Assembly: GCA_000002445.1 (NCBI GenBank)
Contig: CH464491.1
Span: forward strand, 1,248,001-1,312,000
Direction: 5' to 3'
Source of the DNA: Trypanosoma brucei
Lineage: Eukaryota
Length of the DNA: 64,000 bases
Shown here: positions 24,301 to 61,774 of the stretch, piece by piece
How positions within the stretch are numbered: the first letter of the stretch is position 1
Layout: the number at the start of each line of letters is the position of its first letter
Program-made: the position numbers and the translations under genes
Notes under the pieces: model-generated
What the model was told of the DNA's origin: nothing
The model's database searches: none
The model's input: only the letters and a program-made list of their open reading frames with translations

Positions 24301-24660
24301 AGGCCTTCGATTCCCGTCATGGTGAAGCTTTTGACTAGTAGCGATGAGAAAACGAGGCAGAACGCTGCTGGAGCCGTAAGTAACTTCGTACGAAATGGAA
24401 GCACACTTACAAACGCACTAATGGAAAACAGTGCTATCGAAACTCTTTCCCACATGCTCAAGAAAGATAAGGTGCCCCTCCGAAAAATTGCACTTATCAC
24501 CATAGGTTCCTTCTGCGCTTATGAAAATTGCAAAGCGAAGTTCCTGGCACTAGGTCTAGAGGGAACTATTAGGCAACTTGAAGAGAGTGGCATCTGTAAT
24601 GTCGATCCCTCCATCACAAAGTACGTGGCACGGATAAGGCAAAGGATTTCGTCCTCGTGA
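21391..24660 (+). CDS. Serine/threonine protein kinase of the Fused/STK36 family, with an N-terminal kinase domain and C-terminal armadillo/HEAT repeats.
   Basis: The track ORF starts at a GTG at 21262. The first ATG, at 21391, gives [34 protein letters not shown]... The kinase subdomains are present: [37 protein letters not shown]. The kinase domain matches human STK36/Fused motif for motif. ARM-like repeats follow, for example GNAAFHN and [13 protein letters not shown]. Confidence 0.85.
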
Positions 24661-24963
24661 CATTTTACTTTGGAGCATCAGGAGGGAACGGTGGCACCAT
24701 CATTGTTGTAATTGAAGAAATACAAGTAAAATACAATAGCGATACACCATCCCTAATTTCCTTGCTTTAACCCATATACGTTGGCTTCAAGTCAACAGTT
24801 TCCGTTATTTAAATCGCGACGTTAGAGGAAATGATCCCTTTCTCTCGTCTTTTTCTATTAGATTCCGTGGTTAAGGAAAACAAGTGAAGTGGAGGTGGAA
24901 AGGAGAGCCAGTTGGAGAGAAAAACCACGTACACAAGTTTTACAGAATAAATCAAGGTCAGAT

Positions 24964-27148: not shown

Positions 27149-27241
27149 CGCCTCGTGGCGACTTGGTATATTGAAAACAAGGAGGAAAAAAAAGTTCGGG
27201 GGCCCCGAAGGTGTGATTCGCAGGACGTTATTCGGCCTGGA

Positions 27242-32424: not shown

Positions 32425-32714
32425 GGAGATTGTGTTTCATTTCTGCACTGTCGGTCGTAGTCGACCGCTTTACACAGCATCTGTTATTTCCCATGTTGGA
32501 AACGGCAAGATTTATAGTGGCGGTATCGACGAAGTTGTGGCGCAAATTTTGCTCAACTGTATCTGTGTTTTCGCTTATTTCAATCAACATAAGGGTTGTT
32601 TGCTGGTTTATATCGTAATTCATCATTATTTCTTTCTCTTAATGGCTCGTGCCCCTTTTCTGCGGAAGTCATAACCTGGTAGGTTTGAAGAAGGCAGAGA
32701 CTCGTGTTGAGAAC

Positions 32715-35700: not shown

Positions 35701-38084
35701 GACTTTCACCAGGGTCAGGAGCTGCGGCAGCTCTAGCTACGATTCACATTCTTTCAATGGCATGCAACGATTGGGTAGATCCGCTACTCGATGCTCTAGC
35801 GCAGGTGCTTTTACAGCAACAACAACTGTTAGTGAAGACAGATATGGCAAATGGAGACTCTGAGGTAACAGGCATCACACTTTTGCATGTTTGCCGGATA
35901 ATGCATACCGTGCTTATGGGGTCCCGGAGACCCCCGCTTCCGCTTGATCCACTTGCACAGGTGTTGACATCGTTGATCTCGCGCTACGTAGGACCACATC
36001 AACAGAAAATTCTTCTTTCGGCTACGGGGGCCTTAGTGTCAACCATAACCTGTGGGCACGATAGGCTTTCCAAGCAAGTGAACACCAAGTATTTAACTTT
36101 GTGCTACTCATTGATGAATACCTACTATGTGCACGTAGCTTCGTTTGCCCCCACACTTCGTACCAACCAATGCAACGTCGGCTACACATTACGTTTTCTT
36201 TTCCTCCTCTCGGAGTTCCTACGACTCTACCCTGGATGGAAGCACCGCCACCCGGAACTGGCCGCCCTCACAACCACGACATCATGTGCTGGCTCCGCTG
36301 GAGCGACAACTGTTCCAAACCAGCTTGCATGCGGCGATGGCATATGCGCGAATATTTACTCGGCGGTGGAATTGGTGTTGCGCGAGTGCCCCGAAAGGGA
36401 ACGGGGAAGAACCACTGTAATCGCCCTGCGAGTAATGGGTTCGTTGTGCATGCTTCAACCTACTACTTATCTACGTCATTGCGAGCCATACATTCGTCGT
36501 GCAATTCACCCTGCGAGTGATGTGCAGCAACAACTTCAGGGTCTCACATTCATACGGGATTTTCTGCGCGACGAAGATTCCAGGGTGCACGAAGCAGCCA
36601 TGGCGGCCGGCGCAACTCTGCCAATTCAATGGCAGGATAACGGCAACTGCAGCACGCAACCCGCGAGCCCCAATAATGGGTGTCGCCTACTGAAGCTTCA
36701 AGCCTCTGCAGAAACGCAGGTGGAGGAACAGAACAGTGGTATGGCAACTTGGTTACTTCAGCAGTTCCATGAGCATGTGACCCTTCTCTGTGGGAGTTAC
36801 ATGTTACCTGTGAGGGAACTGGCCATGGAAATACTTCACCTGTGTGCAGCGGGTGGGCTGCTGCCGCCGCCGAGGTACACTAAAGCGTTAATTGTGCTGG
36901 GTGCCGATCCACAGAGCGGTGACGTTAGGAGGACCGCTGTTGCTTACGTCCTGGAACAATGTGAGCGCCACGGGGACCTTATGGTAGCAAGTTCAACTGC
37001 CGGGATTGTGAAGGCATTCGACCTCCATGCCGTCTGCGGGGTTGATGTTGTGAAGAGTGCCATTGGGGTGTACGACACACAGCACCATAACGGACAGGGG
37101 GAAGGTGAGTACTGTGTTCATGCGTACCTCTTTAAATCGCTGCACAAAAAATATCGCGATGCCATCGTCTCATCGCTGATGTGTTATTTTCATGAGGAAG
37201 CCCGCGTAGGCCAATGGATGCGGGAGCATAAGCTTACTTGTAGCGGCGGCGCGGCCAGTGGATCCAAGGGCTTGATGGAACTAACACCGAGTCCACTTCC
37301 ATTTCTTATCCACTTGACAGTTGTGCTGGCCCACATTCCTTTCCAGCTCGAAAGTGATGTCGTTCATCTGTTGGACAGTTGCCGCACGGTTGTTGATTTA
37401 AGTGGACCGAGTTGCATGGAGTTCGTGCAGCAGCAGCTCGCACTGCTTCAAGCGAGTACGGGAACGGGAGCCCGCGGCTCACGAGGTGTCGGTGACGTCG
37501 GCGTTACCAAAGTTACGGATAGTGCACTTGACGTGTGGAGGTGCTATGGCGTTTCGTGCGTTCTACACCTCAATACTTTCCTGCATTCAGCGTACGACCT
37601 GCGCGGATCGAAGCGGTATCGACAGTCCGGGGTTGGCCGCCCGGTGGGGAGGGCCGCACGCAGTGACTCGCGAAGGGTGGCGTCCACGGCCTTCCTCAAT
37701 AAGATGAATGAGCTTCTGCAGAGCATGAACGTACTGTGGGGTGGGAAATCGGATGCAGAGGGAAAGCTCAATAACTGCAAAATTCAGTCAATGAAAAGCC
37801 TGCTTACCTCCCTCGCAGGCGCAGCTGGGTTGGAGGATACGGACGCCGTGCTTGAGTGCCCGAGTGGTCCACGAATGAAAACGAAAGCATCCACGCGCCA
37901 TCATAAGAAGGCAAAGAAGCGGGGCCGACCCTGTTGTCGGCTGTCAAATGTTGTGAATGACTCTTCGAGCAGCAGCTCCGAGAGAGCCACATCCGCTGAG
38001 TCGTTTCAGCGTGGTATTGACCACGCAAGACACGGTGAATGCATAAGTGAGTGGGCCGATGATTTTTTTCACACGGAGCAGTGA
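32715..38084 (+). CDS. Very large hypothetical protein (1789 aa), predicted helical-repeat architecture, function unknown.
   Basis: The track ORF starts at a GTG at 32649; the first ATG is at 32715 (MASIPNGAAP...). The reading frame is uninterrupted for 5.4 kb with complex composition. No low-complexity artefacts are present. I see no recognisable enzyme motif. Confidence 0.6.
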   Translation: MASIPNGAAPIPPDVTCTINPLLDLLAAFPVPQLAAIPPTRYCENDVAHCEPDAAREEAITNTIEESARTLIASSSYELLREATVCIDSSVATVPKGGSIRPTLSPLAQRIHERLLQLEKNVRVGGIRNVPGGGSPHKGRVPWERQPARQMTLRPRREPSQDAARTAEQEDGSESPRIETKQSPMAVQKNEQTYGEFKTEAYRSMEVADIFNEKLMDSKSLDALLGMLSSATQPFRDVEGETITAFLTALVQPSVSPPSTKKKCLDDVETDISVELMERVIACCSCVSHPSFNPSHIPEDLINHLITKLAVLLRQVARRASGRSKKSKGTSTELQCLRALLGCFSLLVSDERLDVCSPGELIRLEELCYQSLFVATSGFGHQEVVTYAAYVMSHALQLYRCLWNHLKVERDITTERFFLQLPLGGNLLLRLQQLPSGEKVMPLTAAVVNAAQSLDIGTETIGLRDAECLVQQCRSWAARFVQHFVLGKRELQDRDTVWTLVLQFVDDLANMLGLPEYPAADAILQSLLASLAHYASVTAVTLGERNAANFSLLPLFVEVIYRVSRVALGGSLQKALCVKVPPASRLLSSAQMRQWRYLTYYDTTATKKKGSNISADYENKNEDDSLQVGLDDYRAILYTALSQSSNLPPSDFGDVSLHLRAAHVLTWAVHDKCFHELTLDKLVRSRHIVEGGVSVDWGMLRACSLRLSAERERSLLNRAAKERLLSLLLSVFQVWEEEPQGSLGSLEVARKKALTYIAELTELHPPLLDKIWPIVQRCARCDNARVREATVALLLTLISGICRDTKRESGLTESAVADMLTDVVSMLLHFLRDHNAAVVARSIAALDTLLTEEPYTKLFEQMSKVEHLVTFTQSKLLTLITPSAAVLEVPDCQHQAALHRLFIRRWTAQMPGDFEQYHVHIRVAKELLRLTGSTIKYPYDASESLHLVTLLRGMCSELTAVKPKRRGPKKAEDARRQALCGVMVGAAKALWSEWQRLSPGSGAAAALATIHILSMACNDWVDPLLDALAQVLLQQQQLLVKTDMANGDSEVTGITLLHVCRIMHTVLMGSRRPPLPLDPLAQVLTSLISRYVGPHQQKILLSATGALVSTITCGHDRLSKQVNTKYLTLCYSLMNTYYVHVASFAPTLRTNQCNVGYTLRFLFLLSEFLRLYPGWKHRHPELAALTTTTSCAGSAGATTVPNQLACGDGICANIYSAVELVLRECPERERGRTTVIALRVMGSLCMLQPTTYLRHCEPYIRRAIHPASDVQQQLQGLTFIRDFLRDEDSRVHEAAMAAGATLPIQWQDNGNCSTQPASPNNGCRLLKLQASAETQVEEQNSGMATWLLQQFHEHVTLLCGSYMLPVRELAMEILHLCAAGGLLPPPRYTKALIVLGADPQSGDVRRTAVAYVLEQCERHGDLMVASSTAGIVKAFDLHAVCGVDVVKSAIGVYDTQHHNGQGEGEYCVHAYLFKSLHKKYRDAIVSSLMCYFHEEARVGQWMREHKLTCSGGAASGSKGLMELTPSPLPFLIHLTVVLAHIPFQLESDVVHLLDSCRTVVDLSGPSCMEFVQQQLALLQASTGTGARGSRGVGDVGVTKVTDSALDVWRCYGVSCVLHLNTFLHSAYDLRGSKRYRQSGVGRPVGRAARSDSRRVASTAFLNKMNELLQSMNVLWGGKSDAEGKLNNCKIQSMKSLLTSLAGAAGLEDTDAVLECPSGPRMKTKASTRHHKKAKKRGRPCCRLSNVVNDSSSSSSERATSAESFQRGIDHARHGECISEWADDFFHTEQ

Positions 38085-43069: not shown

Positions 43070-43464
43070 CTCTGATAAGCTGTACTCTCTGCGTATATGT
43101 AACGAACTGTTCACCTGTTTAAGGCGGAGAGTTGTTGTATTTGAACATAGTGTGCCTTCCATCCGTAAATTTGCTGTTGAAGCACCTTTGAAGTCGTGCA
43201 AGTCCGCGCGTTTGCCCTCGTTCAAGCGTGCTGAAACCAGCTGCAACGCCACGCGACTCCGTTGCTGGTCCAGATGTCAACTTCCTCATGTGTTATGTTG
43301 TAGCAATTCCCGGTGTGTTTAGCTGTGTGTATATATATACAAACTTCTCGTTTTTTTGTTTTTACCCTATTTATGTGTGAATGTATGTGTGGGTGCGCAA
43401 CTGTCCGCGGAGCTCGGCAAGCACCGCGAATAAAGTAGGAAAAACGAAAGGCAGTTTTGACGCA

Positions 43465-44184
43465 ATGCAGGTGCGTCGCGCCACGATGGAAGATATGTAC
43501 CAAATGCAGCACTGCAACCTACGCTGCCTGCCCGAGAACTATAACCTGCGGTATTACCTTTACCACATTCTTTCGTGGCCACAGCTGCTGTACGTTCAGG
43601 AGGATAACAACGGCAATGTTGTAGGTTATGTTCTCGCCAAGATGGAAGAAGAGGAGCACGCAGAGAAGGTGTTTGGACACATCACAAGTATTGCCGTCCT
43701 ACGAACGCACCGGCGCCTAGGTATTGCGTCGCGGGTGATGAATGCCGCGCTGCATGAAATGGAGCACGAATACGACGCCAACTTCTGCTCTCTCCACGTT
43801 CGTAAGACAAATGATGCCGCTCTTCATCTGTACCAGAATACCCTCAACTTTCGCTGTGCTAATGTAGAAAGTAAGTACTACGTTGATGAGGAAGATGCCT
43901 ATCATATGAAGCGTTTCTTTAAGGGAACAAACCCAGGCTTCTATGTGACAGAAAGTAGGCAACTCGTACGCCAACCAAACACAGGGGCTGGTGCGGCAGC
44001 CGGGTCCGCCGCAGAAGCTAGTGGTCAACGGCCAGACAAAAAGAACTCCGTAGACAAGCAGAAGGAGCAGTTGGAACTGGCGGCAGAACTCCTTGAAGAG
44101 GATCTTAAGAGCTCCGGAAAGGGGCGGCGACAGCCGCATCAGCAACACCAAAAGGGCGGTAAGCACGGAAAAGGTAAAAAGTAA
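43465..44184 (+). CDS. NAA10: N-alpha-acetyltransferase catalytic subunit Naa10/ARD1 (NatA complex).
   Basis: The ATG at 43465 gives [63 protein letters not shown]...[21 protein letters not shown]...[20 protein letters not shown]. This is nearly collinear with human NAA10 ([47 protein letters not shown]...). It includes the GNAT acetyl-CoA motif R-x-x-G-x-A. The upstream ATG at 43381 lies before the AG acceptor and inside the polyY region, so I did not use it. Confidence 0.85.
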
Positions 44185-49366: not shown

Positions 49367-50353
49367 AGGGAAAAGACGTTTATTCGCCATTTCAGGGGGG
49401 GGGGCATTGATGCCTTCTCACAAAATCAAGGTTGGTGAATGCACACCTGATCAAAGGCCATCAACTTTTCCACTTTTGAAATAATACTATCTTATTGATG
49501 TTGTTACTCCTTTGTTTTGTTTTCATGATGTATTCTCTCTTGTGGAACATTTATGTTTATTTTCACTCCTCGTCACTACCATAACATCAGTGCAAACCCA
49601 CATGGACGCCGCATTTGCCCAACAGTGTGGCGAGGTCCGCTCTACAGTGCCTGTGGGATGTCAACTGTTTTACTTGTTAGTCATCGTTTCCGTGATTTGC
49701 TATATTATTCTGTCATTATCACTCTGCTCCTTTTTCTTGCCAACGACATGAAACTTCTATTTGTCCCCTTCACAATCCAGCTTGTCCCCTGACCCCGATA
49801 ATGAGAAGGGAGAGGTCATAAAGTTCATATCATTGCACATTGTCGCGCTCTCCCTTAATTATCCCTTATGGCCTCTTTCTTCTTTCCCCCGTGCTGTCGT
49901 GCTCTCAATCTCTCATTGCAACCGAACTTCGCTTCCTTCCGTTCATTCCTTACTTCTATCGGGGATTAAGCAATAAACCAGAAAACAAATATATTGCAAG
50001 ACTTGGTTGCTCTTATCGGCAGGGGCTGCTACTTTTTGGGATTGCAGCTGTCACAAGGTTCCTTCACCGGTTGTTGTTCATATTACTCCGTAGCATTGTC
50101 GAGAGCTTGTGCTTACGGTGTAGCTTAATTGACGGCCGCGCGCATTAGCAGTTGAAGTAAGAAATTTCTGCCCTTCCCCTTCCCTGCTCACCCCCTTTTT
50201 TTTCTTTCTTGACATTCCACTCACCTTTCCTCGGGTGCACACATTTAAGGAGGAACGTAGGGGAAAAGGTGTGAGCTAGAGTGGACAAACGTCCCCCCCT
50301 TTTTGGCGTGCATCAATCTATTACATAGTGAGCTGGATAACTTTCTCTTGTCC

Positions 50354-50965
50354 ATGTCTGTGAAGACGCTTGCCGCCCCAACAAAGAAGTACAAAATTGT
50401 CCTTTTGGGCGATAGCGGTGTTGGTAAATCATCCCTCGTACAGCGGCTCGCGAAGAATGAGTGGTGCGACAACCAAAACTCAACGGTAGGCGCGTCTTTC
50501 CTCCGGTACGTGTGTACTGTAGGGGATACAGCTGTAAACTTCGATATTTGGGACACTGCCGGTCAGGAACGCTACAAAAGTCTGGCATCCATGTATTACC
50601 GGGGCGCTGCTGCTGCACTTGTGGTGTATGAAATCCCGTCATGGGAAACATTTGAGCGGGCGAAACATTGGGTGCGGGAACTCGCAACTAACTCACCCGA
50701 GACAATTGTCATACTTGTGGGAAATAAAAGCGACCTAAGGGGGACTAGCGGTTGTGTGAGTAGTGAAGAGGCGGCAACATATGCCCGGGAACTCAATTTG
50801 CTGTTCAGTGAAGCGAGTGCAAAAGACGGTAGTGGTGTAAGTGAAGTATTCATGCAGATTGCGCAGCGGCTTGTAGCGTCGAATAATAATAACACTGTTC
50901 ATAGCGGTGGTGTGTTGGGAGGTCAGCCGAATTCCACTAGGCGAAGTTCCGGTTGCTGTGGTTGA
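50354..50965 (+). CDS. RAB5: Rab5-family small GTPase; by local gene order it is probably the T. brucei RAB5B paralog.
   Basis: The track ORF starts at a TTG at 50303; the first ATG is at 50354 (MSVKTLAAPTKKYKIVLLGDSGVGKSS). The motifs are G1 GDSGVGKS, WDTAGQERY and YYRGAAAALVVYEI (compare Rab5 YYRGAQAAIVVYDIT), then G4 GNKSDL, SAK, and a C-terminal CC prenylation motif (…SSGCCG). Confidence 0.85.
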   Translation: MSVKTLAAPTKKYKIVLLGDSGVGKSSLVQRLAKNEWCDNQNSTVGASFLRYVCTVGDTAVNFDIWDTAGQERYKSLASMYYRGAAAALVVYEIPSWETFERAKHWVRELATNSPETIVILVGNKSDLRGTSGCVSSEEAATYARELNLLFSEASAKDGSGVSEVFMQIAQRLVASNNNNTVHSGGVLGGQPNSTRRSSGCCG

Positions 50966-53090
50966 AGCACTGCATGTTGTTGATTTCCGTTAGAGTGTTT
51001 TCGAACTCACTCACTCATGAGCGAGTTGAGTGGGTGTGTGAGTTCTTTTTTTTTTCTTTTCATCTGATTTGTTTTCTTTCATGGGAGAGGTGGTTTTCAA
51101 AGAGTGGAAGAAGAAGAAAGGATCGAGGAGGGTGAGGAAATTTCGTTAAGGGTTTTAGCTGTCCGCGTTTGGACCTTACTTTTTTGTTCTCACTCTCTTT
51201 CTTGTTTCACTTTGTTTTTTTCCTTCGTTTTACTGTTAGTTGGTGGTGTATTGTTTGTCGTGAACCTCACCTCTAAGACGCGCGGCATCCTTCTCTTTAC
51301 CTCTCACCACCGCTCGCGGGCTTATCTTTTTCTTGTTTTTTTTGTTTCGAGCCTTCTTGTTCCGCCATCATCATTATTATTGTTGTTATTATTCCCACTT
51401 CTTCCACTAGTGCTTTTACCACTTTCATTGGTTTTTTTTGCGGTGCCGCTAATGCGTTTGGTTCATTACCGTTTCATAACTCATGCCCACATAACACCAA
51501 TGAACTTTTGCCGTTTTGTTGTTGTAAAGAGAGGAAAACAGAAGAAGAAGAAAATGAAAACGTGATGAAGGCTGAAACAAAACAGTGAGAGGCGATGTAC
51601 CACCAGAGGTTGAGAAGGAACAGGAGGAATAGAAACGATAATGTGATGTTGAGGGTAACCGCCACAAGTAGTTATAACTTTTGAGAAGGTAAACATAAAG
51701 AGAAGGGAAGGGATAACAAGAGCTGATTTTCAAGAAAATAAATGCGCTTGTGTGCATGTGTATGTACTGGTGTCCCTCACTCCCTCTCCCTTTCTCTCTC
51801 TTTGTGGAGGTACTTAAGGAATTGGAGTTATAGATACAAATATGAGAGAAGAGGGAGGTAAAAAAAAAAAGAAAGAAACGGCTTTGAATTACCCACGATA
51901 CATGCATTCGTGTTCTGCCGAACTTCGCCTTCTCTTATGTGTTCAATTTCCCCTCGCTTCATTTCCATCCGTTTTGGTTCACTTTGCTTTTTTTTTTCTT
52001 TGTTATGTATAGGTACCGCCTTTAAGTGTTTTTGTGTTTGGGTGCACGGCCATCCTGTGCGATCTGCGAGTTGTTTCTGTTGCATCCGGAGGATGACCGC
52101 GCATTTCAGATTGTTATATTCATCTTTGCTTGTATCTCTCTCTCCCTCTCAAACACGTAAATACATGTATGCCTCCCCCTTTATTAAGATTGTTTTATTC
52201 GTTTCACTGTTACTCTTCCTGTCCGAATACGGTAACTTTAAACTTCTCTTTTTTTTTTCTCAAGAAAGTTCATTTTATGACGCGACAGTGAGACGGGTAC
52301 TCAAACTCTCACAGGTGTGTGCATTTAACATAGGGTTATTTTATATTGTTATGGCGTTTATGTGGTAATTTGTTACAAGTCAGCCGACAACCACTTAGTT
52401 TTAATTGCACGTGTTTGTGTGGGTCCCGGGTTTCAAAAAAGGAATTGCGAATTTTTGCTCCTCCAACATGTGGTTTCCACCAAATGTGTAGCGATACCCA
52501 CATGTTTCGGACGCCAGAGTACTCGGGGGTGTGGGAGTGGTTTCGACCAAAAAAGTGCGACGAGCGGGGGCCAAAGGACGTGCATGTCAGTATGTTTGAA
52601 CTGATGCAACTGATTTCATATTTTCTACCTCAGTGAATATCTTGACTTACGTATTTTCACTCACACTTCTGTCGCCCTCACCAATACATCGTTGCCTTGT
52701 CTTTCGATGATTGAAAGTGTTGGATGGGTTTACTGAAAGGGGCGGCTGATACTTGTCCTTGTGTTGATACTTTTGTGCGATTCAAGAATTCGACCATGTG
52801 GTAGATTCCGGAGGGCACCGCATGAATTTCCCACACCAGTACAAAAATCGGCATCGTTGATGTTTAAATTGTTTGTCTAACGGATTGGCGTTGCGCCTGC
52901 TCACCACCTCCCCTCCCACGTCTGCAAGTAACTCATTTGTGTTTCTGCTCCTGTCTATCCGTTGCTATTTCTCTCCCTTTTTTTTTTCTGTTTCGCTTGC
53001 CTTTGTTACCACCCACTTGGCTTTCCATCTTTCTTTGGATCCTCTTCAAAATGGTCGAACGAAAAGAAAGGAAGTGGGAACCCGCGACTG

Positions 53091-53924
53091 ATGCCATCAG
53101 TGTTGGTCTTCCTGCGGGATGCACTCGCTCACTACGAGTCGGGTGAGTTATGTACCGCCCGACAGGCGGCAGAAGAGGCTCTTCATGCCGCACAGCCGCA
53201 CGAACACGAAGCGTTCGCGGATTCATTGCTTCTTTTGGGGAACATTAGTGCTGCGGAGGGCGACTTCATTACGGCAGAGCGGTACGCTGCAACGTGTAGT
53301 TGCTACGTTGAGGAACATTTGGGCCCGCAACACAATGGAGCCGCAGTGGTGAGGCTTAACCGGGCTATATTTTTGTTAGAGAGCCTTCGTGTGCAATCCG
53401 TTACCACCGTGGCAGTTGTGGAGGAGGCGCATGCGCTTCTGCTGGAGGCGGAGCAGCTCCTTGTGAATGTTTGTCATGTGGGGCGACTGGTGTTAGCGGA
53501 GGTGCTTCATAACATCGGGGTGTGTTGCGCACTTCTTGGGCGTTATGTTGCAGCCTTAACGGCGTACATGCGGTCCATGCAAATACGCGTAAGGTTTAAG
53601 GATGCTGCGAGGGTTACGGATCTTAAACTCGCCTTGACAATGGAGCAGGTAGCACTGCTTTACCGTTTAATGGATGAGCCAAAGCGGCAGGAAGCCGCGC
53701 TGCTGATGGAAGTCGTAGCCTCAACCCGCAGGCAACTTCTCGGCCCACATCATCCACTTTTAGCCGCAGCCGTTCTTGCGCAGGGTGTCATTGCTGCTGA
53801 ACTCGGCCAGCGGTGTCGGGCGCAATCATTTCTTCGCAACGCCCTTGAAATGTTTTTGAGCCTTTACGGCAAGGAATCGTTCCAACTCCAATGCGCGGAG
53901 CGGCTGCTCGCTGAAGTATCGTGA
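53091..53924 (+). CDS. Hypothetical TPR-like helical repeat protein (277 aa).
   Basis: The track ORF starts at a TTG at 52962 and translates the polyY tract. The first in-frame ATG is at 53091 (MPSVLVFLRDALAHYESGEL...). It shows repeated A/L-rich helix pairs (…LLLLGNISAAEGDFITAERYAA…, …VLHNIGVCCALLGRYVAALTAYMRSMQI…), as in TPR and kinesin-light-chain-like repeats. Confidence 0.5.
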   Translation: MPSVLVFLRDALAHYESGELCTARQAAEEALHAAQPHEHEAFADSLLLLGNISAAEGDFITAERYAATCSCYVEEHLGPQHNGAAVVRLNRAIFLLESLRVQSVTTVAVVEEAHALLLEAEQLLVNVCHVGRLVLAEVLHNIGVCCALLGRYVAALTAYMRSMQIRVRFKDAARVTDLKLALTMEQVALLYRLMDEPKRQEAALLMEVVASTRRQLLGPHHPLLAAAVLAQGVIAAELGQRCRAQSFLRNALEMFLSLYGKESFQLQCAERLLAEVS

Positions 53925-54232
53925 GGGCCTGCCATACGTTGCGGAGTCATAAGCATAGAACAAACACAATTATATAAATCCATACATGCGTACATTGGTT
54001 TAAATGCCTTTCCTTTGATCCCCTGCATATGCATGTATATATATATATATACGTATTTTATTTATTTACATCTTCACTTCCTGTTCAAATACGTACTAAG
54101 GGGAGGATGCTGGGAACAGGAACAACGGTGGAACAATTCCTTTGCCCTTTTTGTTACTTATCTTTGCGTTTCGCCCTCATTGTGTGTTGGTGCTGCGTGT
54201 CCCATCCATTTGTTTGTCACCTCCTTCTCTCG

Positions 54233-54234
<2 letters not shown>

Positions 54235-54270
<36 letters not shown>

Positions 54271-54282
54271 TTATTTATTTAT
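54235..54282 (+). repeat. (AT)16 followed by (TTTA)4 compound microsatellite.
   Basis: The sequence atatatatatatatatatatatatatatatatttatttatttatttatg is directly visible. Confidence 0.9.
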
Positions 54283-54694
54283 GTATGCTTGTGTTCAGTT
54301 CTTTACCTTCTCCCTTTTTTTTTCTCTTGTATTTTGTGCTCTTCCTTTTTTTTTTACACTTGCTCTGTATATCATTCAACGAGGTGGTAAAAACGAAAAC
54401 ACACAACAGAGAAAGAAAAGAAAGGAAAGGTGAAAACAATTTCAAGGGAAATCAAGTACAACACACCCTATTACCATCGTTATCATTATTGTTGCTTAAC
54501 ACCGCAAAAAAACAAGAAAAGTGAAAAAAAAAAGACTCTGGCACCTAGGCGGATTTGAAACACCAACAGGAAGATAAGGAAAAGTAAAACAAATACAAAG
54601 GTGGACTACATATTTTTGATTGTGCACGACCGAAAGGATACTGAATCAAACGCCTTTAGGGGAAAAGAAATATAGGGAGACTCAGTGATTTTTA

Positions 54695-54716
54695 ATATAT
54701 ATATATATATATATAT
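54695..54716 (+). repeat. (AT)11 microsatellite upstream of PKAR.
   Basis: The sequence atatatatatatatatatatat is directly visible. Confidence 0.9.
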
Positions 54717-54873
54717 TCAAGGAAAAAGGCATAGGTTGAAAGGGGAAAGAAAAAGAAAAGGGTTGGGGACGAAAAAGTTTTTTAAAAAAAAACTAAGACA
54801 AAACAACGAAATAAAACCAGAAGGGTAGTTTTTCCTTTGTTTTCTTTTCTTTTTGTTTTTTTTTCTGGTTTCC

Positions 54874-56373
54874 ATGTCTGAAAAGGGAACATCGTTAAAC
54901 CTATTCCTCGCCGCCTGCCAAAAGGAGGGTGTGAAGCAACCCAACACATTTCTTGTCGAGTTCTTTACGAAAAAACCTGAACTGTCGGAAGTGGAGGAAA
55001 TAGACTTGAGCAAGAACTACATTGGGAACCGTGGTATTCTTGCCTTACTCGATGTAATTAGCGAGCTGCCATGCTTTCGCTTCCTCAACTGCTCAAACCA
55101 AAAACTGTATAACACGGACTTGAATGAGGATAGCGTTAGAGGTAACGCCACAATAGATCGCATCGTCGACGTTTTCAAATCACATCCAACAGCCAACGCA
55201 TTAGATCTCAGCCACAATCCTATTTCAAACTATGCTGGCCGTAGATTATTGTTGCTTACCCAAAATAACAAGCGCATCTGCCGTGTGGAATTGGTGGACA
55301 CTCGCATTGACTTTGAACTCCGCTCTCGCATTACGCAACAATGTGAAAAGAATACCATCGCTATTTGGGAGTCACAAGCACAAGAAAAGGAGGAGGAACG
55401 CGCCTTTGGTGAAAGTGTCACGTGGGTCCCAACACAAACGTCTGCGGACTTGACGGCAATCGGTGGCGGCCGGAAGCGACGTACTACAGTGCGAGGTGAG
55501 GGAATTGATCCTGAGAAGGCTAAATCATATGTTGCACCATATTTCGAGAAGAGTGAAGACGAAACGGCACTCATCTTGAAGTTGTTGACGTATAACGTAC
55601 TCTTCTCCTTTCTGGACTCACGCGATCTTATGACTGTGGCGGGTGCCATGTGGCGTGTGGAGTTCAAGCAGGATGATTGCATTATGGAGGCGGGGCAGAC
55701 AACATGTGACAAACTGTATATAATTCAAGATGGTAAAGCAGATATCATTAAAGAAGGACAGAAGGTATATCTCAAGGTAGAAGGTACGGCGGTAGGAGAG
55801 CTTGAACTTATGTATCAGACACCAACTGTTGCCACGGTGAAAGTTTGCACACCGGAGCTCATCGCATGGGCACTCGATCGCGACACGTATCGTCACCTCG
55901 TGATGGGTAGTGCCATCCGCCGCCGTGAGACATATATTCAATTCCTAACAAATATTCCGTTCCTCAGTGGCCTTGACAATTATGAGAAGCTGCAACTTGC
56001 GGATGCCCTCAGCAGCGACGAGTTTGAACCGGGTGATTACATCATTCGCTACGGAGAGGAGGGCGAATGGCTGTACATCATTTTGGAAGGTTCTGTTGAT
56101 GTGGTTGGGCGGGATGACGATGGAAATGAAAAGCATGTTTGGGAATTCGGGAAGGGGGATCATGTGGGTGAGCTGGAATTCCTTAACAATCACGCCAATG
56201 TAGCAGATGTTGTGGCAAAAACGCATGTTGTCACGGCGAAGCTTAACCGTAGGCACTTTGAAATGTGCCTTGGACCTGTCATTGATGTACTGAAACGAAC
56301 CTCGCAGCAGCCAAACTATGAGTACTACCAGTCGAAACTGAAAACTACTTTAAGGGCAGAGGGGAGGAAGTAG
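54874..56373 (+). CDS. PKAR: cAMP-dependent-protein-kinase-type regulatory subunit (PKA-R), with an N-terminal leucine-rich-repeat domain and two C-terminal cyclic-nucleotide-binding-like domains.
   Basis: The track ORF starts at a TTG at 54853. The ATG at 54874 gives a 499-aa product beginning MSEKGTSLNLFLAACQKEG. LRR motifs are present: LSKNYIGNRGILALLDVISELPCFRFLNCSNQKL and LDLSHNPISNYAGRRLLLL. The pseudosubstrate-like RRTTV is present. Two CNB domains carry the PBC cassettes GELELMYQTPTVATV and GELEFLNNHANVADVVA. The length and N-terminus match my memory of T. brucei PKAR. Confidence 0.9.
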   Translation: MSEKGTSLNLFLAACQKEGVKQPNTFLVEFFTKKPELSEVEEIDLSKNYIGNRGILALLDVISELPCFRFLNCSNQKLYNTDLNEDSVRGNATIDRIVDVFKSHPTANALDLSHNPISNYAGRRLLLLTQNNKRICRVELVDTRIDFELRSRITQQCEKNTIAIWESQAQEKEEERAFGESVTWVPTQTSADLTAIGGGRKRRTTVRGEGIDPEKAKSYVAPYFEKSEDETALILKLLTYNVLFSFLDSRDLMTVAGAMWRVEFKQDDCIMEAGQTTCDKLYIIQDGKADIIKEGQKVYLKVEGTAVGELELMYQTPTVATVKVCTPELIAWALDRDTYRHLVMGSAIRRRETYIQFLTNIPFLSGLDNYEKLQLADALSSDEFEPGDYIIRYGEEGEWLYIILEGSVDVVGRDDDGNEKHVWEFGKGDHVGELEFLNNHANVADVVAKTHVVTAKLNRRHFEMCLGPVIDVLKRTSQQPNYEYYQSKLKTTLRAEGRK

Positions 56374-57940
56374 GTGGCTCGTAAAATATGCATTGGATTG
56401 CTTTTCGTGTTTTTTTTGTTTGTTTTCTTGTTTTTGTTTTCTTTTGGGGAGTATTCGATTGGATTTTTTTTTGGGAGGTGGAGGCTACTGTAGAGAGGAA
56501 GAGTCGTGTAAACAAGAGGAGGAAGCAGGAAGAAATAATAATAATAATAATAGAAGAAGGGAAGGAGAGTGGCTGCAACGGAAGGTAAAGTAAAAAAAAA
56601 AAAGAAGAGAGGGAGGAGAAGAGAGGAGAACAAACAACTTATCCCGTCATTTCTTCTTCTTCTTTTTTGATCTTGCGTTATTGTATGTATATGTATTCCT
56701 GACTTCTGTTGCTTCCTTCATCAATGCAGAAGTTGTCAGTTTCGCAAAGAATGAAGGAAGTAAAAAAAGAAAAGAAAAAAGTTTATTATTATTATTAAAG
56801 AAAAAAAAAGGAGAGATGAATAAAATAGAGGAAGGGAGTATGAATCCCATTTACTGGAGGAGAAAACAAAACGAAGGGGATTAAATGAGATGATGAAATT
56901 GAAAAGTGAGAGTGAGAGTATGAGTGAATGAACTGTTGCGAAGACGTGAGACAACTGGAAGGCGAGAAAGTTGTGTGGGATAATGTTAGAAAAAATAAGG
57001 AAACATATATAGAAAAAAGAAAAGAGAAGAGAAGAGGCAAGGGGTCATGGAGTAATAAAACGAGGGAAAATAGTAATGATAATAATAATAATAATAATAA
57101 AAACAAGATGGGAACATGAAAAACGGTGAAGGCAAATATGAGACTTGTAACTGTACCGAATATGACACCTATTGTTGTTATTATTACTATTGTTGTTATT
57201 TATTTATTTTTTTAAAAAAAAAGGGGGGAAAAAGAAAAAAAAATGAGGGAATAACATTTTGGATTTGCACCAGATCCAGTTTATATGGAAGAACCCCTGC
57301 TGATGGTGGCAAGGCGTATTGTGGACTTGACGCGGCAATTTTTTTTTTTTTACGCGCAACTGCTTCGGTAGAGTAGGACAAAAAGAAAAATTACGCAAAC
57401 AAAATATTTTGGTGATTTCTCTTTTTCCCCTTTTTGGTGTTTATATTTATGTTAAAAGTGTACAGTTATGTGTCTGTAAATTGTGGTATACCGTCACTTC
57501 AGCATTTCCTTCTTGTATAACACACCAACAAAGAAAAAAAAGAAAGGGAAAAAGATTTTTTTTCTAATTTATTCTATTTATATTTTGTTGTTGTTGGTGT
57601 TATTGCGTTAGTAACGGCAGCAATGTGTGGTATTTGAAGGTTTATGTTTCATTTCTGTATGATGATAACATGTGTAACTTTCATTCATTTAATGTTAGGT
57701 CTGCCATGTCGTCTCATTATTATTATTATTATTATCATCATCATCATGTTTTAAAGTTCTCTCGTCCCTCTCGTACTCAACTTTTCGTTTTTGTTTCTTT
57801 GTTATTTTGCCGAGAATAAAGAAAAAATATGTATGTATATATTTATTTATTTAAAAGCAACACCGACCGAACCTATCCTTCCCACAGCTACGCATAAGCA
57901 AAATTCGCAAACAGCACGAACTTTATTTATTTATTTATTT

Positions 57941-57970
57941 GTGTGTGTTTGTGTGTGTGTGTGTGTGTGT
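57941..57970 (+). repeat. (GT)n microsatellite in the long region downstream of PKAR.
   Basis: The sequence gtgtgtgtttgtgtgtgtgtgtgtgtgtgt is directly visible. Confidence 0.9.
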
Positions 57971-58372
57971 TTTTTCTCCTCCCTCTTCTTTGTTTATGCC
58001 ATCTGATGTTGTAGTTGTTTTCTTTTCTTTTTTCCTTTTTTTTTTTTGTCAGCATGTGAAGGGAAAAGTTTCATCTCGTGTGTTTCCTTTCATTTGTTTT
58101 TTTTTCTCTCTTGCTTTTGTTCTTCGCTTCCTTCGCCCCATAATTCCGTTTGTTGACTCCTTTCGGCTCCTTCGCTTTTTGTTTTGTTTTATGTTTTATG
58201 TCTTTATATTTATTTGTTTAATGTTTCAATTGCCCTTGTGTTTGTATTTGTGTTTGTGTTTGTGCTCGGGAGGTTCTGTTTTTTTTTTTCCTTTTTGTTG
58301 TTTTTTTTTTTTCCCTCCCCCTTCCCCGCCGTTTGATGTTGTTTTTTCTTCACTCTTGATTTTATTCCTTTC

Positions 58373-58408
58373 CTCTCTCTCTCTCTCTCTCTCTCTCTGT
58401 CTGTCTCT
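58373..58408 (+). repeat. (CT)n microsatellite.
   Basis: The sequence ctctctctctctctctctctctctgtctgtctc is directly visible. Confidence 0.9.
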
Positions 58409-58501
58409 TCACTTGAGCAATTTTTCTTACCTTACCGTTGGATGGACACTTCCTTTTTTTTCTTAAAAAATTACTGTTTGATTTCATTTAATTCTGCACG
58501 C

Positions 58502-58525
58502 GAGGAGGAGGAGGAGGAGGAGGAG
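58502..58525 (+). repeat. (GAG)8 trinucleotide repeat.
   Basis: The sequence gaggaggaggaggaggaggaggag is directly visible. Confidence 0.9.
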
Positions 58526-59689
58526 GGAAGGTGTGTTTTGTTTTATTTGAAAGAAAAAGAGAGGAGAAGAAAAAGAAATTAATTTATTTATTAATTAATT
58601 TATTTATTTACGTATGTGTGCGTTTTGTGTGAAATGGACGTCAAGAGGAGTAATATCCCAAAGCACTTTTCCTCTTCTTTTTTTTTTGTTCCCTCTCTCC
58701 CTCTCTCTCTCTTCTTTGTTTGTTTTTTTGTTTTGTTTGTTTTTTTACTTACTTAAAAAATGAAAATAATGTTTTGAATGAAAAATATCAATATTTTTAT
58801 TCGGGCGTGTCATGCATTGCTAAAACAAAAATAAATACGCCAATAGAGAAGAGGAGGAAGAAAGAAAATGGAATGGAATGGGTTGTGAAAGTCATGTAAT
58901 ATGAAGAAAGAAAAGAAAGAAAAAATAAATAAAAAAATAAAAAAGTGACAAAGGCCGAATATAAATAGAATTAAAAACAATACTGCCACCACCCACCCCA
59001 AAAAAAAAATATATATATATATAAGAAAGAGAAGTACGAGATGCGGATATTAACAAAAAGAAATTAAAGAGATGGGAAAGAGAGAAGGGGGGAAAAAAAA
59101 AAGACAGAGAACAACATGTAAAAATTTTAATTTTGGCGGGGGCGGGGGAAGGGGGGAGGGAAATGCAAAACTGTAATTTCTATTTTAAGAAATAAAATAA
59201 AATAAAATAAGAGAGAGAAAGAGAGAGATGGAAGTGTATTTATATGTGTACGTACCGGTATTAGGAGGAAAGGTGAAGAGCTGTGCGTTATAATGTATGA
59301 ATTTGTTGTTTGAGTGAAGGAATGAAAAAAAAAAAAGATAAATATATAAATAAATTACACATATGATTATAATTATAACAGAATAATAATCAAACAAAAC
59401 AATAATAACACAAAAAAAATAGGAGGAAGAGGAAGTAAAGGAAGGCGGAGGAATGTACAAAAAAAAAGCAGAGAGAAGAAGATAAGATTAAGTTATGCTA
59501 AGTTAAGTTAAGAGGCACATTTTAGAGGAGGAGGAGGAGGATGAGGAAGAAGAAGAAGAAAAACAAGAAACTAAATTGAAAAAAATGTGAGGGAGTAAAG
59601 ACATTGCAGGGGGAGGTGGGAGAAAAAATATATATATATATATATAAGAAAAGGGGGTGAAACAATTTTTTCTTTTAACCATATGAATA

Positions 59690-59744
59690 TGAATATTTAT
59701 TTATATTTATATTTATATTTATATTCATATTTATATTTATATTG
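59690..59744 (+). repeat. (ATATTT)n hexanucleotide minisatellite, about 9 units.
   Basis: The sequence tatttatttatatttatatttatatttatattcatatttatatttatatt is directly visible. Confidence 0.85.
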
Positions 59745-60187
59745 TGTATTTGTATTAGTGGTGCCCGGGGGTATCTCGCGGTTGGCGCTTTAAAATCTTG
59801 CATTTTGTTGTCGTGTTGTCTTCTTTTTTTTTTTTCTTTTTTCCTCCTCCCCCCCCTTGCGGTCGCATTATCTGTTCAAATTTTTTTTCATGTGTCTTTT
59901 TGTCGTGTTTGTTTGTTTGTTTGTTTTTTTCTTTACTTCGCTTTATCTTACCTTATCTTATCTTATCTTTTTCTCGTCATGTTTTTTTTTTACTTTGATT
60001 CTCTTCCGTTAATTTTTTTATACTTTTTATTTTCTTCATACTAATATTTGCTGCATGGTACTTCCAATGTCGTTACGCGTTTGATCCACTTTTTTTTTCT
60101 CCCCCCCCCCATCATTCCCCCCTTCTTTTTTTTTTTCATTCTTCTCATTTTCTACACGCACACACGCCTCTTCACTTTTTCTGGTGC

Positions 60188-60211
60188 ATATATATATATA
60201 TATATATATAT
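60188..60211 (+). repeat. (AT)12 microsatellite.
   Basis: The sequence atatatatatatatatatatatat is directly visible. Confidence 0.9.
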
Positions 60212-61774
60212 TGTTATTTATTTATATACAAACACAATAAAAAAGCAAACGATGAAAGAATAAGACCGCAGAAGAGATAAACATTTTGTTGTTCAAGGAA
60301 GAAGGGGGTGACAGAAAAAAAAAAAGAAGGAAGCAAGAAGGAAGGAATGAATACAGTTTGTGTCTCTACGTGAAGCGATTATTTCATTTTGTTTTTTTTT
60401 TTAAATTATATTGTTATAACAATAATATAAAAAAAACTTATATCTTGTACCTCTATATTTACACGGACTGTGCACCGAAGTGTGTGGAAAGGAAAGCCCG
60501 CATGCTTAAGGAAGGAGAGGGGTTGTGTGTAGTGACTTTGTGAAGCCCTTTGAGGGAGTTTATTTCACGCCTTATTTTGTGTGTTGCGCTTCTCTGCTTT
60601 AAAAAAAAAAAAAAAAAAGTGGCCTCCCATCTTTTTTTTATTTATTTGTTGTTGTTGTTGTTGTTTTGGTTTTGCCTTCTCTCTCCTTGTTCTCCTTTCT
60701 CAAACAATAATTATTTTTTTTTGCTTTTGTTCTCTCTCCATTCACGTTGCAAATATATTGAAGAAAAGGGGGAATGGGGATGCACAAGTTGTTTTACTGG
60801 ATATCATTATTACAAATTTAAAGTGAAAAAACAAAGATGTCGAAAAAAAAAAAGGGGGACGGAAAAATATTATTATAATAACAATAATACTAATAATAAT
60901 AAATAGTGTACAGAAGTAATAAATAAGCAATCAAAAGGCAAGTTGTTTAAGTGATGCATTTGCTGAGGTGCATTGGCATCTGACTGACGTTTTGAACTTG
61001 TGGAGGATACGCATGCACATGTACACGTGTATGTGTGTGTAAATATATGTATATATGTTTATCAGCGCGTTCTTGTGCTTCCATTCCAAAAGAAAATAAA
61101 AAGGAGGAGGGGTTGCGGGACATCATATAACAATGTTACTGAAAAAAAAATGGAAGGGAAAAGAATATATGAGTGGATGAAAGGGTTATTATTAACAAAC
61201 CCCTGTTGCATTTACTCAGTAGGATACAAACACGTTCATCTGTAGCTGATGTCTGCTGGAAAGGTTTCGGGTGACAGGTCTCGGTGTCGGTATTGGTGCC
61301 ATTGTTTATTTTGTTTTATTGGAATCACGACACGACTGACTCACCACGGAAGTAGGCGTGCGGCGCAGAAATTATTACAGTCCCCCTTCTGACCGTTGGA
61401 TGCTATGAACGCACTCTATTTTACTCTCTCTCTTTCCCTCTTTCTCTCTTTTTCACGTCATCCCCTTTGGTATCGTTATCACTATTATTTATTTTATATT
61501 ATATGCAACTTCTACATTTTTTTTTTCATACCCTTTTTTTCATCTTTCACCCGCACTCAACTGTGATTTCTGTGGAACAACCACAATAACAACAAAATGA
61601 AGGAAACTTCGCATCTCTAAAGGGCAAAGCGGAGTATTTTGAAGAGTGTCAACCAATAAGTAAGTGCAGGCTTCCGTCGTGTCGGAAGCCTTATCTTTTA
61701 CTTATTGCTTGACTCGATATATATATATATATATATATACATATACATATTCCTCAGCGCCGTAAGCACTTGTT

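What the first reader, a model, noticed from the sequence alone, without database searches (positions are those of the whole stretch)
55795..56217. PKA regulatory subunit lacks the cAMP phosphate-clamping arginine in both phosphate-binding cassettes.
The two cyclic-nucleotide-binding domains retain the PBC scaffold (G-E-L-x-L...A-T-V), but the invariant Arg that coordinates the cyclic phosphate is replaced. Site A reads GELELMYQTP-T-VATV, with Thr at 55825-55827 where canonical GELALIYGTPRAATV has Arg. Site B reads GELEFLNNHA-N-VADVVA, with Asn at 56197-56199 where canonical ...KPRAASAYA has Arg. Both changes are directly visible in the sequence. Kinetoplastid PKA has been reported to be unresponsive to cAMP and to be activated by nucleoside-type ligands instead. 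This locus shows the structural reason for that. It is a well-defined example of a rewired second-messenger receptor.
Basis: partly seen in the sequence, partly recalled or inferred. Interest (0 to 1): 0.55.

Follow-up and report, generated by a model that had tools for sequence, protein, structure and literature searches.

The report
Trypanosome nucleoside-gated PKA regulatory subunit
This is the well-studied regulatory subunit of Trypanosoma brucei protein kinase A: both ligand pockets do lack the arginine that grips cyclic AMP, but published crystal structures and mutants already explain this.

Summary
Window 54874-56373 (+) encodes a 499-aa protein with two cyclic-nucleotide-binding domains. 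Codon 55825-55827 is Thr318 and codon 56197-56199 is Asn442. In ungapped HMMER alignments these lie opposite the phosphate-clamping Arg of mammalian RIalpha in site A and site B.

The protein is Trypanosoma brucei PKAR. Residues 199-499 are 100% identical to PDB 6FLO, the inosine complex. PDB 6H4G is the E311A/T318R/V319A mutant with cAMP bound.

The finding is already published in full (Bachmaier 2019, PMC6440977; Ober 2024, PMC10959531). T318R+N442R alone gives no cAMP activation and leaves inosine potency unchanged.

It is the Ala-to-Glu change hidden in the "x" of "G-E-L-x-L" (E311 at 55804-55806, E435 at 56176-56178). This Glu binds the ribose hydroxyls and clashes with the cyclic phosphate. 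So the causal reading is only partly right.

One side observation goes beyond the papers read. The same Glu/no-Arg/Val cassette, with its Y-x-Y-Y lid, also occurs in free-living euglenids and diplonemids, some as proteins with 3-5 tandem R units.

Verdict: real, ordinary, already known, low interest.

The parts
54874..56373 (+). Complete coding sequence of the PKA regulatory subunit (PKAR, 499 aa plus TAG stop). It is the orthologue of Tb927.11.4610.
   Evidence: ORF. ATG start and TAG stop. 100% identical over full length to P0001, T. brucei gambiense PKAR. Residues 199-499 are 100% identical to PDB 6FLO.
54874..55470 (+). N-terminal region (aa 1-199), leucine-rich-repeat-like. It takes the place of the dimerisation/docking domain of canonical PKARs.
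   Evidence: Only sub-threshold Pfam LRR hits were found (LRR_6 E=0.0029). No PF02197 RIIa domain was found, although canonical homologues P0079, P0084 and P0087 carry it. PMC6440977 describes the region as an LRR domain.
55477..55491 (+). Inhibitor/substrate motif RRTTV (aa 202-206), which docks in the catalytic subunit.
   Evidence: Sequence. It aligns with the RIalpha inhibitor site 'rrrrgais'. PMC6440977 names it as the PKA substrate motif.
55795..55833 (+). Site A cassette GELELMYQTPTVA (aa 308-320), called 'ribose binding cassette A'.
   Evidence: Boundaries 308-320 are from PMC10959531.
55804..55806 (+). Glu311 (GAA). It replaces Ala202 of RIalpha, binds the ribose 3'/5' OH and clashes with the cyclic phosphate.
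   Evidence: Codon. Role from PMC10959531.
55825..55830 (+). Thr318 (ACT), in place of Arg209 of RIalpha, and Val319 (GTT), in place of Ala.
   Evidence: Codons. Alignment. Position 318 varies among orthologues (T, V, A or C).
55981..55983 (+). Tyr370, the capping residue that stacks on the purine in site A.
   Evidence: Codon. Role from PMC10959531, Fig. 2 legend.
56167..56208 (+). Site B cassette GELEFLNNHANVAD (aa 432-445), called 'ribose binding cassette B'.
   Evidence: Boundaries 432-445 are from PMC10959531.
56176..56178 (+). Glu435 (GAA). It replaces Ala326 of RIalpha.
   Evidence: Role from PMC10959531.
56197..56202 (+). Asn442 (AAT), in place of Arg333 of RIalpha, and Val443 (GTA), in place of Ala.
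   Evidence: Alignment.
56317..56337 (+). C-terminal alphaD 'lid' YEYYQSK. It holds Tyr482 (site B cap) and Tyr484, Tyr485 and Lys488, which seal site B.
   Evidence: Codons. Role from PMC10959531. The Y-x-Y-Y motif is co-conserved with Glu/non-Arg site B units.

Best explanation
The locus encodes the single regulatory subunit (PKAR) of Trypanosoma brucei protein kinase A. It works as a nucleoside receptor, not a cAMP receptor.

The protein keeps the PKA-R architecture: an inhibitor motif RRTTV followed by two tandem CNB domains. It has an LRR-like N-terminus instead of a dimerisation domain, so it forms R-C heterodimers.

Three residues in each pocket deviate from the cAMP consensus G-E-L-A-L...P-R-A-A:
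- Ala to Glu (E311, E435). The Glu carboxylate hydrogen-bonds the free 3' and 5' hydroxyls of a purine nucleoside. It occupies the space the Arg guanidinium occupies in RIalpha and would clash with a cyclic phosphate.
- Arg to a small neutral residue (T318, N442). This removes charge neutralisation of the phosphate.
- Ala to Val (V319, V443). This packs against the lid.

Tyr370 and Tyr482 stack on the purine, and a C-terminal alphaD helix (Y484, Y485, K488) closes site B. Binding of inosine, guanosine or adenosine at nanomolar affinity releases the catalytic subunit by the conserved allosteric route.

Shown here: the sequence, its alignment, its identity to the solved structure, and conservation of the cassette. 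Taken from the cited papers: ligand binding, mutant phenotypes and in vivo ligands.
For: Pfam finds two PF00027 domains (E=7.6e-31). Residues 199-499 are identical to 6FLO, and 6H4G differs only by E311A/T318R/V319A. The ungapped alignment to RIalpha places E311/T318/V319 and E435/N442/V443 opposite A/R/A. All codons were verified.

Conservation: E435, non-Arg442 and V443 are present in all 78 Euglenozoa-type homologues, and A/R is present in all 14 canonical ones. Across 234 proteins, Glu and non-Arg are tightly coupled. Site B counts are 189 E/nonR, 3 E/R, 1 A/nonR and 127 A/R.

Literature:
- cAMP up to 1 mM does not activate the kinase, in vitro or in vivo (PMC6440977).
- Inosine EC50 is 18 nM. 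Table 2 gives the mutant series, and the structural roles of Glu and Arg are described (PMC10959531).
- The abstract reports nanomolar nucleoside binding, the alphaD lid, and guanosine as the predominant in vivo ligand.
Against: Nothing in the sequence contradicts this. Several points remain open in the literature. The physiological source and dynamics of the nucleoside signal are unknown, and PMC10959531 puts a question mark in its heading 'Nucleosides as second messengers?'. No holoenzyme structure exists (section 18 excerpt). Older reports claimed micromolar cAMP binding for T. cruzi and Leishmania orthologues, which the authors dispute. The N-terminal LRR assignment reached only sub-threshold Pfam scores here.
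Confidence: 0.93

Rival explanations
1. One reading: loss of the two phosphate-clamping arginines is by itself the structural cause of cAMP insensitivity, and restoring them would restore cAMP binding.
For: T318 and N442 do lie at the Arg positions. Arg neutralises and hydrogen-bonds the cyclic phosphate in RIalpha (PMC10959531). Adding Arg alone gives some cIMP response, 24 uM (mutant 4).
Against: Mutant 4 (T318R+N442R) is not activated by cAMP and keeps its inosine EC50 of 36 nM. cAMP response needs E311A/E435A as well, as in mutants 5 and 1. An RIalpha mutant at R333 loses only 5-fold in cAMP EC50 (PMC6440977). Positions 318 and 442 are variable among orthologues (T, V, A, C, N), whereas the Glu is invariant. 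This pattern points to the Glu as the selected specificity residue.
Confidence: 0.05
2. The CNB domains are degenerate, ligand-less relics. The subunit would be a constitutive inhibitor or scaffold regulated by something other than a small ligand.
For: The canonical Arg is lost in both sites. cAMP does not activate the kinase.
Against: The pockets are highly conserved, not decaying. GELEF..VADV and the Y-x-Y-Y lid are nearly invariant across kinetoplastids, diplonemids and euglenids. Crystal structures show inosine in both sites (6FLO, 6HYI). Nanomolar nucleoside activation has been measured.
Confidence: 0.01
3. The subunit is a cGMP receptor, that is, a 'cGMP-regulated PKA' (Shalaby et al. 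2001, as cited in PMC6440977).
For: cGMP activates immunoprecipitated holoenzyme at 100 uM or above (PMC6440977).
Against: The same paper reports that membrane-permeable cGMP derivatives have no effect in vivo. It also cites evidence against cGMP signalling in trypanosomatids. The Glu that clashes with a cyclic phosphate applies equally to cGMP.
Confidence: 0.01

Closest known systems
Trypanosoma brucei PKAR (Tb927.11.4610; PDB 6FLO wild type with inosine, 6H4G mutant 6 with cAMP)
   Same: It is the same protein. Residues 199-499 are 100% identical to the crystallised construct. The full length is 100% identical to T. b. gambiense PKAR and to the product encoded in the T. equiperdum assembly GCA_001457755.2.
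   Different: Nothing differs at the protein level. The window DNA is 99.1% identical to the T. equiperdum contig, and the differences are mostly indels in non-coding repeats.
Trypanosoma cruzi PKAR (PDB 6FTF, 6HYI, 6HYQ) and Leishmania PKAR1
   Same: They share the architecture, the Glu in both cassettes, the Val after the ex-Arg position, and the Y-x-Y-Y lid. They are activated by nucleosides.
   Different: The ex-Arg positions differ: V/T in T. cruzi and A/T in Leishmania, against T/N here. Most orthologues have an Arg one residue upstream in site B (NNH-R-T-VADV), where T. brucei has Ala441.
Mammalian PKA RIalpha (PDB 1RGS, 2QCS, 4MX3 and others)
   Same: It has two tandem CNB domains preceded by an inhibitor site. 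It aligns over 285 residues at E=2e-53 without gaps in the cassettes. Capping aromatic residues and the allosteric release mechanism are conserved (PMC10959531).
   Different: RIalpha has the A202/R209/A210 and A326/R333/A334 consensus and binds cAMP. It has an N-terminal D/D domain and forms R2C2. It lacks the alphaD Y-x-Y-Y lid.
Leishmania / T. cruzi PKAR3 (divergent paralogue)
   Same: It also lacks both Arg (N443 and A567) and has a Glu in site B (PMC11006142). Homologues with a degenerate site A but an intact GELEF..VADV site B appear in the searches here, for example P0068-P0075.
   Different: It has a different N-terminus and a pseudo-inhibitor with Ser. Ligand-controlled release has not been demonstrated. 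Reference genes are absent from T. brucei according to the general literature. That absence was not tested here.

Membership tests
PKA regulatory subunit (PKAR) family | Two tandem cyclic-nucleotide-binding (CNB, PF00027) domains at the C-terminus | tested here: met
   Pfam PF00027, two stretches, E=7.6e-31, 106 bits against a cut-off of 27.5. It aligns to both CNB domains of RIalpha.
PKA regulatory subunit (PKAR) family | Inhibitor/pseudosubstrate motif R-R-x-S/T/A/G N-terminal of CNB-A | tested here: met
   RRTTV at aa 202-206, aligned with the RIalpha 'rrrrgais' region.
PKA regulatory subunit (PKAR) family | N-terminal dimerisation/docking domain (PF02197 RIIa) | tested here: not met
   No PF02197 hit, only weak LRR hits. 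This is a known trait of the kinetoplastid PKAR1 subfamily, which forms R-C heterodimers (PMC6440977).
PKA regulatory subunit (PKAR) family | Binds and inhibits the PKA catalytic subunit | not testable with these tools
   Pull-downs with PKAC1, PKAC2 and PKAC3 are reported in PMC6440977.
cAMP-binding CNB domain (functional class) | Phosphate-binding cassette consensus G-E-L-A-L-x(4,5)-P-R-A-A with the phosphate-clamping Arg | tested here: not met
   Site A reads GELELMYQTPTVA and site B reads GELEFLNNHANVA. Each has Glu for Ala, Thr or Asn for Arg, and Val for Ala.
cAMP-binding CNB domain (functional class) | Sub-micromolar cAMP binding or activation | not testable with these tools
   The literature reports no activation up to 1 mM (PMC6440977). 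In Table 2 of PMC10959531 the wild-type cAMP entry is a dash, and its footnotes give maxima of 2 or 5 mM.
Kinetoplastid nucleoside-binding PKAR1 (with a 'ribose binding cassette') | Glu at the position of RIalpha A202 and A326 in both cassettes | tested here: met
   E311 (GAA 55804-55806) and E435 (GAA 56176-56178).
Kinetoplastid nucleoside-binding PKAR1 (with a 'ribose binding cassette') | Small neutral residue at the Arg position, followed by Val | tested here: met
   T318-V319 and N442-V443.
Kinetoplastid nucleoside-binding PKAR1 (with a 'ribose binding cassette') | C-terminal alphaD helix lid (Y484, Y485, K488) and capping Tyr370 and Tyr482 | tested here: met
   All residues are present. 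The motif is co-conserved with the Glu/non-Arg site B.
Kinetoplastid nucleoside-binding PKAR1 (with a 'ribose binding cassette') | N-terminal leucine-rich-repeat domain | tested here: inconclusive
   Only sub-threshold Pfam hits were found (LRR_6 18 bits against a 23.4 cut-off, E=0.0029). PMC6440977 states it is an LRR domain.
Kinetoplastid nucleoside-binding PKAR1 (with a 'ribose binding cassette') | Nanomolar binding of inosine or guanosine | not testable with these tools
   This has been shown for this exact sequence, through the 6FLO co-crystal and an EC50 of 18 nM (PMC10959531).

The most novel reading that the evidence does not exclude
The nucleoside-type pocket may be ancestral to Euglenozoa, not a trypanosomatid or parasite invention. 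The complete site B apparatus consists of Glu, no Arg, Val and the Y-x-Y-Y alphaD lid. It is found in free-living euglenids (Entosiphon, Ploeotia, Peranema) and in diplonemids (Diplonema, Hemistasia, Lacrimia). It is also found in dozens of unnamed metagenomic clusters. Some of these are single polypeptides with 3-5 tandem R-like units. If these proteins bind nucleosides, nucleoside-gated PKA is an old and widespread protist signalling system, and multi-R proteins are a new architecture. The papers read limit the claim to Trypanosomatida or Kinetoplastida. This concerns relatives of the locus, not the locus itself.
Probability: 0.55. Interest if true: 0.4.

Novelty: already known. Interest (0 to 1): 0.12.

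Why it matters
Trypanosome PKA is the first documented case of a CNB domain re-tuned from a cyclic nucleotide to a nucleoside, and the kinase is essential, so it is a drug-target lead. All of this is established for this exact protein through structures, ligand affinities, conversion mutants and in vivo ligands. Re-finding it in a genome scan adds nothing new. It does show that sequence reading can recover a true functional rewiring. The useful correction is that the diagnostic residue for predicting nucleoside rather than cyclic-nucleotide specificity from sequence is the cassette Glu together with the missing Arg. The missing Arg alone is not enough. That combined signature can be used to chart the system outside trypanosomatids.

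Tried and rejected
- An Rfam gathering-threshold scan and a tRNA scan of the whole window found nothing.
- A Pfam scan of the N-terminal 199 aa at E up to 10 gave only sub-threshold LRR hits, so the LRR assignment rests on the literature.
- I did not run AlphaFold or fold searches, because a crystal structure of the identical sequence exists (6FLO).
The co-crystals and Table 2 of PMC10959531 make it unnecessary.
- I considered whether a shifted alignment could put an Arg at the canonical position. Neither T. brucei cassette contains any Arg. The Arg at position 441 in many orthologues (NNH-R-T) is Ala in this protein.
- I considered the TTG start at 54853 listed by the ORF tool. I rejected it in favour of ATG 54874, which gives the 499-aa product identical to database and PDB numbering.
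- The Fisher tests on Glu/Arg coupling are descriptive only, because the sequences are phylogenetically related.
- Searches of the paper library for Euglena or Diplonema PKAR found no description of the cassette outside kinetoplastids. The library is incomplete, so this does not prove novelty.

Full report
**1. What is in the sequence**

The region lies in an ORF at 54853-56373 on the + strand. The ORF tool's TTG start is an artefact of bacterial start rules. The first ATG, at 54874, gives a 499-aa product (MSEKGTS...AEGRK, TAG stop). That product is 100% identical over its full length to the protein annotated 'protein kinase A regulatory subunit, putative [Trypanosoma brucei gambiense DAL972]' (P0001).

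The same protein is encoded in the T. equiperdum assembly GCA_001457755.2. Window 51865-59403 is 99.1% identical to that contig, and most differences are indels. The window is therefore a Trypanozoon (T. brucei sensu lato) chromosome segment. PMC6440977 gives the TriTrypDB accession of PKAR as Tb927.11.4610.

**2. Checking the observation**

Direct reading of the codons gives ACT 55825-55827 = Thr318 and AAT 56197-56199 = Asn442. The finding's span, 55795-56217, corresponds to Gly308-Ala448. Pfam finds two cNMP_binding domains (PF00027, E=7.6e-31).

HMMER against PDB sequences aligns the protein to mammalian RIalpha (E=2e-53) with no gaps inside either cassette. 'gelelmyqtptvatvk' lies over 'gelaliygtpraatvk', and 'geleflnnhanvadvva' lies over 'geiallmnrpraatvva'. 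Thr318 and Asn442 therefore occupy the positions of the two phosphate-clamping arginines. These are R209 and R333 in the bovine numbering used by the papers. Neither cassette contains any Arg, so no alternative register can rescue one.

**3. Is it more than chance?**

I aligned the 92 homologues from the 5.8-billion-protein search. All 78 Euglenozoa-type sequences have Glu435, a non-Arg residue at 442 and Val443. All but three lack Arg at 318. All 14 canonical PKAR/PKG-type sequences in the same list have Ala/Arg at both sites. The substitution is a fixed lineage trait, not noise or a strain artefact.

**4. What it is**

Residues 199-499 are 100% identical to PDB 6FLO. The next hit, 6H4G, differs only at E311A, T318R and V319A. 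T. cruzi PKAR (6FTF, 6HYI, 6HYQ) follows.

Two open-access papers describe this protein in detail. Bachmaier et al. [quoted passage not shown] They show that cGMP acts only at 100 uM or above, and that 7-deaza-nucleosides are nanomolar activators. [quoted passage not shown]

Ober et al. 2024 (PMC10959531) show the following:
- The 6FLO, 6HYI and 6H4G structures were solved.
- Residues 308-320 and 432-445 are named 'ribose binding cassettes'.
- A C-terminal alphaD helix acts as a lid on site B.
- Guanosine is the main ligand bound in bloodstream forms.

**5.

In fact x is the key residue. E311 (GAA 55804-55806) and E435 (GAA 56176-56178) replace the consensus Ala. According to PMC10959531, the Glu side chains bind the ribose 3' and 5' OH. 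They occupy the same space as the Arg guanidinium in RIalpha and clash with the cyclic phosphate.

Table 2 gives these results:

| TbPKAR variant | Inosine | cIMP | cAMP |
|---|---|---|---|
| Wild type | 18 nM | no activation | no activation |
| Mutant 4 (T318R+N442R) | 36 nM | 24 uM | no activation |
| Mutant 2 (E311A/E435A) | 28 uM (1556-fold lower potency) | not determined | no activation |
| Mutant 5 (Glu-to-Ala plus Arg) | 18 uM | 0.5 uM | 90 uM |
| Mutant 1 (mutant 5 plus V319A/V443A) | 300 uM | 0.34 uM | 33 uM |

PMC6440977 adds that an RIalpha mutant at R333 retains cAMP activation with only a 5-fold EC50 shift. My alignment agrees with this hierarchy. The Glu is invariant, whereas positions 318 and 442 drift among T, V, A, C and N. 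Arg loss is therefore a necessary part of the rewiring, but it is not the specificity switch.

The other functional residues named in the papers are all present in the window: RRTTV (202-206), C278, Y370, Y482, Y484, Y485 and K488.

**6. Membership**

The protein meets the PKAR criteria that can be tested here: two CNB domains and an inhibitor motif. It fails two features of canonical cAMP-dependent PKARs. It has no RIIa dimerisation/docking domain, with only weak LRR signals in its place. It also lacks the PBC consensus. It meets every sequence criterion of the kinetoplastid nucleoside-binding PKAR1 class, and it is identical to that class's structural type specimen.

**7. Rivals**

- 'Arg loss alone is sufficient' is refuted by mutant 4.
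- 'Ligand-less relic' is contradicted by the strong conservation of the pockets and by the inosine co-crystals.
- 'cGMP receptor' is contradicted by the in vivo data of PMC6440977.

**8. Beyond the finding**

An exhaustive HMMER search of 1.84 billion cluster representatives listed its best 150 proteins. I mapped every R-like unit in them onto the query. Of the 142 newly returned representatives, 82 carry a Glu/non-Arg site B.

Glu and non-Arg are almost perfectly coupled. Site B counts are 189 E/nonR, 3 E/R, 1 A/nonR and 127 A/R. Site A counts are 130, 15, 5 and 126. No protein mixes the two kinds of site B. These counts are descriptive only, because the sequences are not phylogenetically independent.

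The members with a source name are as follows:
- Euglenids: Entosiphon sulcatum, Ploeotia vitrea, Peranema trichophorum.
- Diplonemids: Hemistasia, Lacrimia lanifica, Diplonema papillatum.

Several are long proteins with tandem R-like units. P0093 has five units in 1787 aa, and P0094-P0103 have three in about 1000 aa. These come from transcriptome assemblies, so chimerism is not excluded.

The lid motif Y482-x-Y484-Y485 is conserved with the cassette in these units (Y485 in 182 of 184). It is absent from Ala/Arg-type units. [quoted passage not shown] PMC11006142 traces PKAR1 and PKAR3 back to Bodo saltans. None of the papers I read mentions euglenids or diplonemids. This is a modest extension and needs biochemical testing.

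**9. Verdict**

The gene is the fully characterised T. brucei PKAR. The phenomenon is already known, including the exact residues, the structures and the revertant mutants. The causal reading needs one correction: Glu311/435 is the main determinant, and T318/N442 are permissive. Interest as a scan finding is low.

Noticed in passing
Related proteins P0059-P0063, P0070, P0093-P0111 and others (not in the window): The Glu/no-Arg/Val cassette is not confined to trypanosomatids. It occurs in euglenids (Entosiphon, Ploeotia, Peranema), in diplonemids (Diplonema, Hemistasia, Lacrimia) and in many unnamed metagenomic clusters. 82 of the 142 newly returned 50%-identity representatives have such a site B.
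   Followed up: partly
P0093 (1787 aa), P0094-P0103 (about 800-1200 aa): Some euglenid and diplonemid homologues are single polypeptides with 3-5 tandem R-like units, each a CNB-A plus CNB-B pair. Site B is well conserved in all units, and site A is often degenerate in the later units. They come from transcriptome assemblies, so chimeric assembly is not excluded.
   Followed up: no
window 56317-56328 (Y482-E-Y484-Y485) and homologues: The alphaD lid motif Y-x-Y-Y, described as trypanosomatid-specific, is conserved wherever site B is of the Glu/non-Arg type, including in euglenids and diplonemids. It is absent from Ala/Arg-type units.
   Followed up: partly
window 56194-56196 (Ala441) compared with orthologues: Most orthologues read NNH-R-T-VADV in site B, with an Arg one residue before the canonical Arg position. 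T. brucei (A), T. congolense (T) and T. vivax (K) do not. I did not pursue whether this neighbouring Arg has any role.
   Followed up: no
Homologues P0059, P0072, P0078, P0094, P0105 and others: A minority of site A units combine the nucleoside-type Glu with a retained Arg (15 E/R units, for example GELELMYSQPRQATV). These resemble the engineered mutant 4 and might be natural intermediates.
   Followed up: no
window about 14000-21000: This looks like a divergent strand-switch region. Large ORFs lie on the - strand up to 13992 (ferric reductase-like, 11653-13992) and on the + strand from 16294 or 21262 onward. GC skew changes sign near 18 kb.
   Followed up: no
window 56374-61774: A 5.4-kb stretch downstream of PKAR has no ORF of 200 aa or more. 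Its GC content is low (0.32-0.37 against about 0.5 elsewhere), its GC skew is positive, and it holds many short microsatellites. Most differences from the T. equiperdum contig in the stretch compared, 51865-59403, are indels (32 gap openings).
   Followed up: no
window 21262-53924: The neighbouring + strand ORFs have ordinary eukaryotic domain content: a protein kinase with ARM/HEAT repeats (21262-24660), a radial spoke head protein (24889-26721), an AMP-binding enzyme (27155-29239), a Nipped-B/SCC2-like protein (32649-38084), a GNAT acetyltransferase (43381-44184), a Ras/Rab GTPase (50303-50965) and a TPR protein (52962-53924).
   Followed up: no
PDB 6RSX (Euglena gracilis PKA regulatory subunit): A solved Euglena PKAR described as 'cAMP-dependent' matches the query only weakly (E=8.7e-32). 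Bodo and Paratrypanosoma are reported to keep a canonical PKAR as well (PMC11006142). Early Euglenozoa may therefore have had both receptor types side by side. I did not inspect the cassettes of 6RSX.
   Followed up: no
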